Shown here piece after piece: positions 40,345-42,519 of a DNA stretch of 64,000 nt. Source of the DNA: Sphyrna mokarran (lineage: Eukaryota); contig JAGIQG010000022.1 of NCBI GenBank assembly GCA_024679065.1, positions 19,096,001 through 19,160,000 on the forward strand, given 5' to 3'. Numbering within the stretch: the first letter of the stretch is position 1; each line of letters begins with the position of its first letter. The notes beneath the pieces were generated by a model that was given only the letters and a program-made list of their open reading frames with translations, was not told where the DNA came from and did not search any database. The translations under genes and the position numbers were made by a program.

Positions 40345-42519
40345 TAGGGACAGAGGGAATGGCAGAGATCCTGAATGAATACTTTGCGTCAGTATTCACG
40401 AAGGAGAGGGGCTTGTTGACAACTCCTGTCTCTGGGGGAACTGTGGACCAGTTGAGGGAAGTATCCATAACGAGGGAGAAAGTGTTAAAGCTTCTGCATA
40501 GCATTAAAACTGATAAATCTCTGGGGCCTGATGGCATTTATCCCAGGCTGCTTAGGGAGGTGCGACGTGAAATTGTTGGGCCTCTGACGCAAATCTTTGT
40601 CTCTTCTTTGGACACAGGTGAGCTCCCAGAGGACTGGAGAATAGCTAATGTTGTACCTTTGCTTAAAAATAGTAGGGATAACCCTGGAAATTATAGGCCA
40701 GTGAGTTTGACATCAGCGGTAGGGAAGCTGTTGGAGGGGATTCTTAGAGATAGGACATATAGGCACTTAGAGCGTTGCGATCTGTTTAGGGATATGCAGC
40801 ATGGCTTTGTTAAGGGGAGGTCGTGCCTTACGAATCTGGTAGAATGTTTTGAGGAGGTGACGAAAACGGTGGACGAAGGGCGAGCCATTGATGTCATCTA
40901 TATGGATTTCAGTAAGGCGTTTGACAAAGTCCCTCATGGGAGGTTAGTTGAAAAGGTCAAGGTTCATGGGATACAAGGACAGGTAGCTAGACGGATAAGT
41001 AACTGGCTTAGTAATAGGAGGCAGAGAGTTATTGTGGAAGGGTGTTTTTCAAGCTGGAGGTCAGTCACTAGTGGTGTGCTGCAGGGCTCAGTACTGGGAC
41101 CTCTTCTATTTATAACATACATAAATGATTTGGAAGAGGGAGTAAATGAATGATCAGCAAGTTTGCAGATGATACAAAGATGGCTGGACTTGCGGATAGT
41201 GAGGAGCATTGTCAGGCGATGCAGCAGGACAGAGATAGGCTGGTAACTTGGGCAGATAGATGGCAGATGGAATTCAATCCTGATAAATGCGAGGTGATGC
41301 ATTTTGGGAGAAAGAATGTAGGTGGGAGGTATATGATGAAGGGTAGACCTATTAAGAGTATAGAAACGCAGAGGGACTTGGGGGTGCAGGTGCACAAGTC
41401 TCTGAAGGTGGCAGAGCAAGTGGAGAAGGTTGTGAAGAAAGCATATGGTATGCTAGCCTTTATAGGAAGGGGTATAGAATACAAGAGCTGGCCTTTAATG
41501 TTGCAGTTGTATAAAACGTTGGTTAGACCTCATTTGGAATACTGCGTTCAGTTCTGGTCGCCTTACTACTGGAAGGATGTGGAGACTCTGGAGAGACTGC
41601 AGAGGAGGTTTACCAGGATGCTGCCTGGTATGGAAGGTCTGAGTTACGAGGAGAGATTAGGCAAATTGGGACTGTTTTCCTTTGAAAGACGTAGACTTAG
41701 AGGAGATCTAATAGAAGTGTACAAGATTATGAGGGGTATAGTTAGAGTAAACAGGGTTAAGCTTTTTCCTAGGATGGACTCGAATAGCACGAGAGGTCAC
41801 GGGCTTAGAGTGAAGGGGGTAAGGTATAATTTGGATGCTAGAGGGAGTTTTTTCACACAGAGGGTGGTGGGGGTATGGAATGCGCTGACAAGTAAAGTAA
41901 TGGAGGCAGGCATTCTGGAGTTATTTAAGAAATATTTAGATGGGCACATGAACAGAATGGGAATGGAGTGGTAAAGAAAACTGTTTCAAAATAGGGATCA
42001 TGAGCCTTTGAAGTCCCTGGGAAGTGTGTAAATAGATGATCATATTGATGTACTTGTTTTTATCCTACAGGTGCTTTTGTCCACCTTGTTGTCTAACAAG
42101 GGGTATACACGCGATGGGTCGTGAGAGGGCTGCTCTTGGATTTTTTTTGAGAGTATCCTAGTGCTTCACATCGTTAGTGTACGCTTGACCTGGACCATTT
42201 GATGGGCAACACGACAGCTCAGTGACTATCGCTGTGCTGTGCAGATATATGGATTTGGGCCTGTGTCTGTGGGAGTTTGCGCATTCTCCCCGTGCTTGCG
42301 TGGGTTTTCTCCGGGTGCTCCGGTTTCCTCCCACATCCCAAAGATGTGCTCTTAGGCTAATTGGCAAAACAAATTCTCCCTAAATTGTCTCAAATTGGTT
42401 TTTAATCCATAGATCTATAAACATGGACAGGGATTGCGGGTAGAGGTGGGAACATCGGGGTGGCGGCATGGGCTCGTTGGGCCGAAGGGCCTGTTTCCCA
42501 TGCTGTTTTGTTCTTTGTT
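40345..42519 (+). mobile_element. Young CR1, 5'-truncated 2.2 kb, RT nearly intact, SINE-containing 3' UTR (copy 3)
   Basis: ORFs 40359-41153 and 41150-41974 form one RT ORF with a single frameshift near 41150; UTR 41975-42519. Confidence 0.96.

What the first reader, a model, noticed from the sequence alone, without database searches (positions are those of the whole stretch)
41975..42519. A CR1 LINE family that uses a captured whole SINE as its 3' end
Seen: after the RT stop there are ~230 nt of unique UTR, then a decayed SINE head at 42204 (GGGCAACACGACAGCTCAGTGACTATCGCTG, cf. free SINE heads such as GGCATGGTGGCACAGTGGTTAGCACTGCTG at ~11685). The V-domain follows (TGTCTGTGGGAGTTTGCGCATTCTCCCCGTG..GGTTTCCTCCCAC, 42262-42380), then a spacer and a CR1-type tail. 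The same composite UTR is attached to CR1 coding sequence in all three copies (28726-29468, 36987-38235, 40345-42519), so it was retrotransposed as a unit. Established: HE1 SINEs borrow the 3' tail of CR1-clade HER1 LINEs. Inference: the parasitism is reversed here, with a LINE adopting its SINE, B-box deleted, as its TPRT recognition end. This matters for whether V-domains are functional and for which way SINE bodies and LINE UTRs exchange sequence.
Basis: partly seen in the sequence, partly recalled or inferred. Interest (0 to 1): 0.7.

Follow-up and report, generated by a model that had tools for sequence, protein, structure and literature searches.

The report
LINE retrotransposon carrying a captured SINE
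Three independently inserted copies of a LINE retrotransposon, likely from a shark or ray, carry the same promoter-less SINE head and near-intact V-domain inside their 3' untranslated end, likely captured once, which would let the V-domain's unknown function be tested in a self-copying element.

Summary
Three 5'-truncated copies (90-93% identical, unrelated flanks) share one 3' end: ORF2 stop, 213 unique nt, a tRNA-type head lacking its B-box, a V-domain (36/37 nt identical to a published bivalve V block), a spacer and a stem-loop tail. Sister LINEs have a UTR of about 75-90 nt, so the SINE part was gained by the LINE. 'Parasitism reversed' is not shown. The tail is not that of the common free V-SINEs. 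RT recognition therefore gained nothing demonstrably new. Unexpectedly, the insert does not look like a dead SINE copy: the head differs from free SINEs at 20/54 sites and the V core at 7/73, whereas dead copies decay evenly. The head changes also keep a hairpin (159 of 20000 simulations fold as well; post hoc). Whether that constraint acted after capture is open. Verdict: a real composite LINE family, a new variant of known module exchange. Genome-wide copy number and Repbase/Dfam status could not be checked.

The parts
40341..41989 (+). C42: 5'-truncated ORF2 (RT and C-terminal region), one frameshift near 41150; family stop position 41987-41989, private premature TAA 41972-41974
   Evidence: (Pfam RVT_1 E 1.2e-19)
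41990..42202 (+). Unique 213-nt UTR segment, no match elsewhere in the window; holds a 3'-splice-site-like signal (AG at 42068-42069) and a long imperfect hairpin (~42099-42186)
42203..42262 (+). tRNA-type SINE head: altered A-box-like motif 42215-42225, hairpin 42214-42240, B-box region deleted
42263..42385 (+). V-domain and distal SINE body; highly conserved block 42299-42335 is 36/37 identical to BivaV-SINE2_MiYe (compared by eye)
42386..42461 (+). Spacer, only patchily alignable to the S3135 spacer
42462..42525 (+). Tail: predicted stem-loop 42462-42507 with GAAG loop 42484-42487, then TTCTTTG-type repeats; same type as sister LINE L3k
36987..38240 (-). C37: second copy, ORF2 end plus the whole composite UTR; possible 7-nt target duplication
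28727..29469 (-). C29: third copy, inserted antisense inside an older free V-SINE (28657-28728 and 29469-29700); lacks 20 nt of the unique segment
3140..3510 (+). S3135: 5'-truncated V-SINE-type piece, closest relative of the captured part; retains a B-box-like T-arm and has the same tail type; free SINE or truncated sister composite
3052..5800 (-). L3k: sister LINE (74% nt, tree support 97/97) with a short native UTR (~78 nt), interrupted in its last codons by S3135; control for the ancestral state (5' end not mapped beyond 5800)
34943..35632 (-). L35k: more distant LINE with a short UTR and no V-domain; outgroup control

Best explanation
This is a LINE family, likely of the CR1 clade, whose copies carry 213 nt of unique DNA, a B-box-less SINE head and a V-domain between the ORF2 stop and a tail of the LINE clade's own type, likely gained in one capture and likely copied since as part of the LINE's own RNA. 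Shown: the anatomy, three independent insertions, short UTRs in relatives, and a donor from the S3135 lineage. Inferred: a master LINE was joined just after its stop codon to host DNA ending in a same-strand V-SINE copy, by read-through with loss of its own tail or by an RT template switch. A Pol III SINE RNA starts at its head and cannot supply the 213 nt, so the source was likely genomic DNA or a Pol II transcript. Because that SINE already bore this clade's stem-loop and repeats, ORF2 protein would have primed on it unchanged, so the swap was tolerated rather than needed. Once it was transcribed from the LINE promoter, the Pol III boxes would have been free to decay. The V core and the head hairpin look constrained as RNA, but whether the constraint acted before or after capture is not resolved.
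For: Unit retrotransposition. Junction right after the stop: L3k's last codons read MEGYK before the S3135 insertion and QLI* after it, matching the family's MEGY(R/K)KLI*, after which the two UTRs diverge. Short UTRs in 3 of 3 relatives whose UTR could be read (L3k, L35k, L001). Donor lineage: composite and S3135 share 21 derived sites against free SINEs, while each of 16 free copies shares 1-8 of 14-36 such sites; clade support 100/100. Tail stem-loop predicted in C42 (3 of 200 shuffles), S3135 (3 of 200) and L3k (2 of 200). No remnant of a first tail in the unique segment (tail profile, E up to 30). Head 20/54 versus V core 7/73 differences, Fisher p 3e-4, while free copies differ evenly (137/640 versus 171/900). 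An outside copy of the family's ORF2 end exists (P0121).
Against: Only three copies and one 64-kb window; the UTR of P0121 could not be seen, and an exact 29-nt UTR pattern found 0 matches in the prokaryotic genome collection (a weak test). Tail origin is unresolved: raw counts are 12 sites S3135=L3k, 8 composite=S3135 and 6 composite=L3k. S3135 is a single truncated copy. The origin of the 213 nt is unknown, and the acceptor-like signal is one of 22 such sites in 128 kb. The tail stem-loop is not better than shuffles in C37 (138 of 200) or L35k (20 of 200). The V core itself does not fold better than shuffles (27 of 200).
Confidence: 0.65

Rival explanations
1. Old functional capture: S3135 is itself a truncated copy of a sister composite LINE, capture predates their split, and the V core and head hairpin have been kept by selection inside Pol II LINE RNA.
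For: S3135 shares the 3'-arm changes of the head hairpin, whose partners in the composite alter A-box positions, and its own B-box is non-canonical (box consensus recalled). On the composite branch, changes unique to it number 5 of 29 columns in the 3' head against 2 of 73 in the V core and 2 of 50 in the distal body. Hairpin retained: 159 of 20000 simulations.
Against: S3135 lacks the 5' arm, so the partner changes are inferred. Head alignment next to the deletion is ambiguous. V-SINE families in general vary heads and keep V (PMC4824008 passages). The hairpin test was chosen after seeing the fold, one free-SINE pair is lost, and column 48 is polymorphic among free copies (6 C, 7 T).
Confidence: 0.3
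2. Internal insertion or recombination: only head+V+spacer entered the LINE's UTR and the LINE kept its own tail, so no whole SINE was captured.
For: Tail 47/59 to sister LINE L3k, the same as to S3135; unresolved node.
Against: 2 polarised tail sites join composite and S3135, and none cleanly joins composite and L3k; the 213 nt remain unexplained.
Confidence: 0.25
3. One reading: the LINE depends on the captured SINE for TPRT recognition (reversed parasitism).
For: The only tail in the element lies 3' of the SINE body, and no first tail remains.
Against: The tail is the clade's own type, present without any SINE part in L3k. Published work places recognition of stringent LINEs in the terminal stem-loop and repeats (PMC5135761 passages).
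Confidence: 0.12
4. Reverse flow: the V-domain is native to this LINE's UTR and V-SINEs took it from there.
For: Kojima 2018 (PMC5786205) proposes that SINE bodies come from LINEs.
Against: A tRNA-type head remnant precedes V in register; sister and outgroup LINEs lack it; the V block occurs in bivalve SINEs, so it long predates this clade.
Confidence: 0.03
5. Segmental duplication of one chance nested insertion.
For: Three copies within 14 kb of each other.
Against: Unrelated flanks, different 5' truncations, private differences spread over all three copies, and C29 splitting an older SINE.
Confidence: 0.01

Closest known systems
HE1 V-SINE / HER1 LINE pair of sharks and rays (listed in the table of PMC3747384)
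   Same: tRNA head, V-domain and LINE-type tail in a genome whose best named RT hits are cartilaginous fish.
   Different: Here the SINE parts sit inside the LINE's UTR. The tail differs from that of the common free V-SINEs in the window.
Ingi-3_AC with a Ceph-SINE/RTE-like segment, and RTE-1_DAn with a tRNA-like sequence (PMC5786205)
   Same: LINE families that carry SINE-like or tRNA-like sequence; SINE-to-LINE recombination is suggested for Ingi-3_AC.
   Different: The Ingi-3_AC segment is ~70 nt in the 5' UTR; the paper's main text reports no head+body+tail in a 3' UTR.
LP-SINEs of molluscs (PMC4758252 section 10)
   Same: A SINE body under a LINE-derived 5' end, proposed Pol II transcription, template switch proposed.
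   Different: Short and non-coding; here the body is attached to RT-coding ORF2.
[quoted passage not shown]
   Same: One retroelement nested in another.
   Different: Described as one rearranged copy with little evidence of transcription; the present composite has retrotransposed at least three times.
V-SINE tail exchange (PMC4758252, PMC4824008, PMC11481361 passages)
   Same: V bodies join different LINE tails; three tail types occur in this window alone.
   Different: The usual flow is LINE tail into SINE; here the SINE body went into the LINE.

Membership tests
CR1-clade LINE | Reverse transcriptase domain in ORF2 | tested here: met
   Pfam RVT_1, E 1.2e-19, 71.2 bits, cutoff 29.6
CR1-clade LINE | RT groups with named CR1 references | tested here: inconclusive
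   Best named hits are shark/ray RTs (51-67%) and bird/turtle RTs (41-54%); no row of the tree is labelled CR1 by its source, so the label is recalled.
CR1-clade LINE | APE endonuclease and ORF1 upstream | not testable with these tools
   All three copies are 5'-truncated
CR1-clade LINE | 3' stem-loop followed by short tandem repeats, no poly(A) | tested here: met
   (C42 z -2.55; same fold predicted but not significant in C37)
CR1-clade LINE | Dispersed, 5'-truncated insertions | tested here: met
V-SINE (embedded part) | V-domain | tested here: met
   42299-42335 is 36/37 identical to BivaV-SINE2_MiYe in the supplement of PMC4824008, by eye; 66/73 to the free-SINE majority
V-SINE (embedded part) | tRNA-derived head | tested here: met
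   1-8 of 3000 shuffles reach the score; ARAGORN and Rfam do not call it
V-SINE (embedded part) | [quoted passage not shown] | tested here: not met
   B-box region deleted; A-box changed at first and last position (consensus recalled)
V-SINE (embedded part) | Short free non-coding unit | tested here: not met
   Fused to ORF2 in 3 of 3 copies. It is a V-SINE-derived segment, not a SINE.
V-SINE (embedded part) | Transcription by Pol III | not testable with these tools
   No expression data
HE1 / HER1 | Sequence identity to the HE1 and HER1 consensus | not testable with these tools
   Ogiwara 2002 not held; no Repbase, Dfam or SINEBase sequences on hand

The most novel reading that the evidence does not exclude
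An autonomous LINE lineage has domesticated a V-SINE: after the Pol III promoter died, selection kept the V-domain and the head hairpin as working RNA elements of the LINE's 3' UTR across at least two subfamilies (the composite and S3135). This would show that the V-domain acts on the retrotransposing RNA, independently of Pol III transcription.
Probability: 0.3. Interest if true: 0.78.

Novelty: new variant of a known kind. Interest (0 to 1): 0.5.

Why it matters
The function of conserved SINE central domains is stated to be unknown (PMC4824008), with transcription, RNA stability, tail exchange and host benefit all proposed. A V-domain inside an RT-coding LINE, cut off from a Pol III promoter, separates these ideas: it can be dated against short-UTR sisters, tested for constraint on the LINE branch, and deleted in a cis retrotransposition assay. 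It also shows sequence flowing from SINE to LINE 3' UTR, which cautions against reading every LINE-SINE similarity as LINE-to-SINE. If V proves to be a passenger, the case is a curiosity of module exchange and a trap for repeat annotation.

Tried and rejected
ARAGORN finds no tRNA at the head. Rfam gives no match up to E 10 in 41900-42600. A window-wide head profile scan is not significant by itself. A suspected remnant tail in the unique segment was not found. The first hairpin simulation used a misaligned register (16 substitutions, 38 of 20000) and was replaced (12 substitutions plus 1 deletion, 159 of 20000; 255 of 20000 with 10 substitutions; by pair count alone 1008 and 1349 of 20000). 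RNAalifold on three 95%-identical copies carries almost no covariation: 2 of 163 pairs show double changes. The unique-segment hairpin is strong in C37 (0 of 200 shuffles) and moderate in C42 (3 of 200), but C29 lacks 20 nt of it and 7 of 120 random tiles reach z -2.4, so it is only a lead. The V match at 3185-3310 first looked like a fourth composite; it is an antisense insertion into L3k. Target duplications: none convincing for C42 or C29, 7 nt possible for C37. Prokaryotic genome collection: 0 hits for the UTR pattern; 2 loci for ORF2, of which L001 has a short UTR and L002 is a 31-residue match of no use. Ten literature searches returned no report of a LINE with a V-SINE in its 3' UTR. 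This is weak evidence, since subscription papers and Repbase Reports are not covered.

Full report
Setting. The window is repeat-rich vertebrate DNA. The best named relatives of the RT are from sharks and rays (Stegostoma 67%, Mustelus 63%, Chiloscyllium 60%), so a cartilaginous fish is inferred.

Observation. Self-BLAST shows three copies, C42 (+), C37 (-) and C29 (-), 90-93% identical over 746-1264 nt, which align through the whole 3' end. Their 500-nt flanks score 19-22 in 6 of 6 comparisons against a random median of 20. They are 5'-truncated at different points, and C29 splits an older free SINE whose two halves (28657-28728, 29469-29700) abut it. They are independent retrotransposition products. 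C42's ORF2 has an RT domain and one frameshift near 41150. The family's stop is at 41987-41989: C37 and C29 end KLI*, and an unnamed outside protein, P0121, ends MEGYRKLI. That shows another copy of the family exists but not its UTR.

The SINE part. The block 42299-42335 matches the published BivaV-SINE2_MiYe V block at 36 of 37 nt (PMC4824008 supplement, compared by eye). The 70 nt upstream match a profile of 13 free heads in register; 5, 8 and 1 of 3000 shuffles score as well, although window-wide E-values are only 0.46-3.5. About 18 nt covering the B-box are missing, and the A-box-like motif differs at both end positions from the recalled consensus.

A sister LINE, L3k (3052 to at least 5800, minus strand; 74% nt; clade support 97/97), has a UTR of about 78 nt. 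Its last codons read MEGYK before an insertion and QLI* after it, matching the family's end, so the composite departs from its sister right after the stop. L35k and an outside contig, L001, also have short UTRs without V. The long UTR is therefore derived. The insertion in L3k, S3135 (about 3140-3510, plus strand), is the closest relative of the captured part: 21 shared derived sites, support 100/100. It keeps a B-box-like T-arm but is truncated inside the head, so it may be a free SINE or the end of a sister composite.

The tail. The composite's tail is not that of the common free V-SINEs. It is 47/59 identical to L3k and 47/59 to S3135, and the three form an unresolved node; two polarised sites favour composite+S3135. 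C42, S3135 and L3k fold the same stem with a GAAG loop better than shuffles (3, 3 and 2 of 200), C37 and L35k do not (138 and 20 of 200). Published experiments on stringent LINEs place recognition in such a terminal stem-loop plus repeats (PMC5135761 passages; shown for L2 and others, inferred for this clade). Whether or not the tail arrived with the SINE, it is the clade's own signal. 'Reversed parasitism' is therefore not shown.

Signs of constraint. Against the free-SINE majority the head differs at 20/54 sites, the V core at 7/73 and the conserved block at 2/37 (p 3e-4 for head versus core), whereas free copies differ evenly, 137/640 versus 171/900. So the LINE did not simply pick up an old dead copy of the common family. 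The head changes keep and extend a hairpin: G-C to A-T at one pair, G-C or G-T to A-T at another, two mismatches turned into pairs, one T-A to T-G, and one pair lost. Random changes of the same number fold as well in 159 of 20000 trials (post hoc). S3135 shares the 3'-arm changes. Changes unique to the composite number 5 of 29 columns in the 3' head and 2 of 73 in the V core, but alignment near the deletion is uncertain. Since V-SINE families generally vary heads and keep V, the constraint may predate capture. The whole C42 UTR folds better than 100 of 100 shuffles. A long hairpin in the unique segment is strong in C37, moderate in C42 and partly deleted in C29.

Mechanism. Most likely (0.65) a master LINE was fused just after its stop to host DNA ending in a same-strand V-SINE of the S3135 lineage, by read-through with loss of its own tail or by template switch. 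Both steps are inferred. The 213 nt have no match in the window or Rfam and hold no first tail; a Pol III SINE RNA could not supply them. The fusion would be tolerated because the SINE ended in the clade's own tail, and the Pol III boxes would then be dispensable. Rivals, which overlap in part: older capture with selection on V inside the LINE (0.3); internal insertion with the LINE's own tail kept (0.25); true dependence on the SINE end (0.12); V native to the LINE (0.03); duplication (0.01).

Comparison with print. Kojima 2018 (PMC5786205; parts 1-4 of 5 read, covering the main text; supplements not read) compared Repbase LINEs and SINEs. [quoted passage not shown] Matetovici 2016 (PMC4758252; passages and section 10; supplements listed, not read) describes LP-SINEs and the ~40-nt conserved V subdomain. 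Nishihara 2016 (PMC4824008; passages and parts of the supplement) states that central-domain function is unknown. PMC3747384 (passages) lists HE1/HER1 as a pair. PMC6036668 and PMC11481361 were seen as passages. Ogiwara 2002 and Walsh 2013 were not held. Ten searches found no description of this structure; Repbase or Dfam entries, or unread supplements, may hold one.

Verdict. A real composite LINE family and a new variant of known SINE-LINE module exchange. It works like a stringent-tail LINE; its embedded part is V-SINE-derived but fails the SINE tests for promoter and independence. Interest 0.5. The novel reading, V-domain and head hairpin selected inside a LINE RNA, has probability about 0.3 and would merit about 0.78.

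Noticed in passing
window 3140-3510 (+) inside 3052-5800 (-): A V-SINE-type piece inserted antisense into the last codons of a sister LINE, giving two similar tails in inverted orientation (3054-3110 and 3437-3500).
   Followed up: yes
window 13000-13105, 62577-62676, 907-990, 9045-9105, 47993-48022: A second free V-SINE subfamily with a different, AT-rich tail; with the common tail and the TTCTTTG tail, V bodies carry three tail types in this window.
   Followed up: partly
window 13928-14442 (-): An ORF2 fragment joined directly, across an internal gap, to the tail type of the common free V-SINEs; its RT groups with a Mustelus asterias protein (100/98), so this clade may be the partner of the common SINE.
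   Followed up: partly
window 16994-17116 and 18524-18646 (+): Two LINE fragments, 93% identical over 123 nt, appear to share the same internal deletion in ORF2; possibly an internally deleted family or a local duplication.
   Followed up: no
window 42045-42075 (+): Branch-point-like, pyrimidine-rich and AG/G signal resembling a 3' splice site in the unique UTR, present in all three copies (the AG/G itself in all three); 22 such sites occur in 128 kb.
   Followed up: partly
window 42099-42186 (+), 37307-37420 (-): Long imperfect hairpin in the unique UTR segment; z -2.4 in C42 and -3.8 in C37, partly deleted in C29.
   Followed up: partly
window 10047-10546, 50238-50665, 58593-59358, 49-359, 18946-19078, 22300-22502: Another dispersed repeat family (69-85% identity between copies), apparently the 3' end of a different LINE; not identified.
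   Followed up: no
window 2073-2147 (-): ARAGORN calls a tRNA-Asn(GTT); it looks degenerate, probably a pseudogene.
   Followed up: no
L001 1-547; proteins P0001, P0002: Vertebrate-type LINE sequence deposited under bacterial names (L001 is a 547-nt contig of an Aeromonas assembly), probably host contamination.
   Followed up: partly
window 56813-57595 and 47016-47499: Local tandem-like repeats of about 110-135 nt units at 78-83% identity.
   Followed up: no
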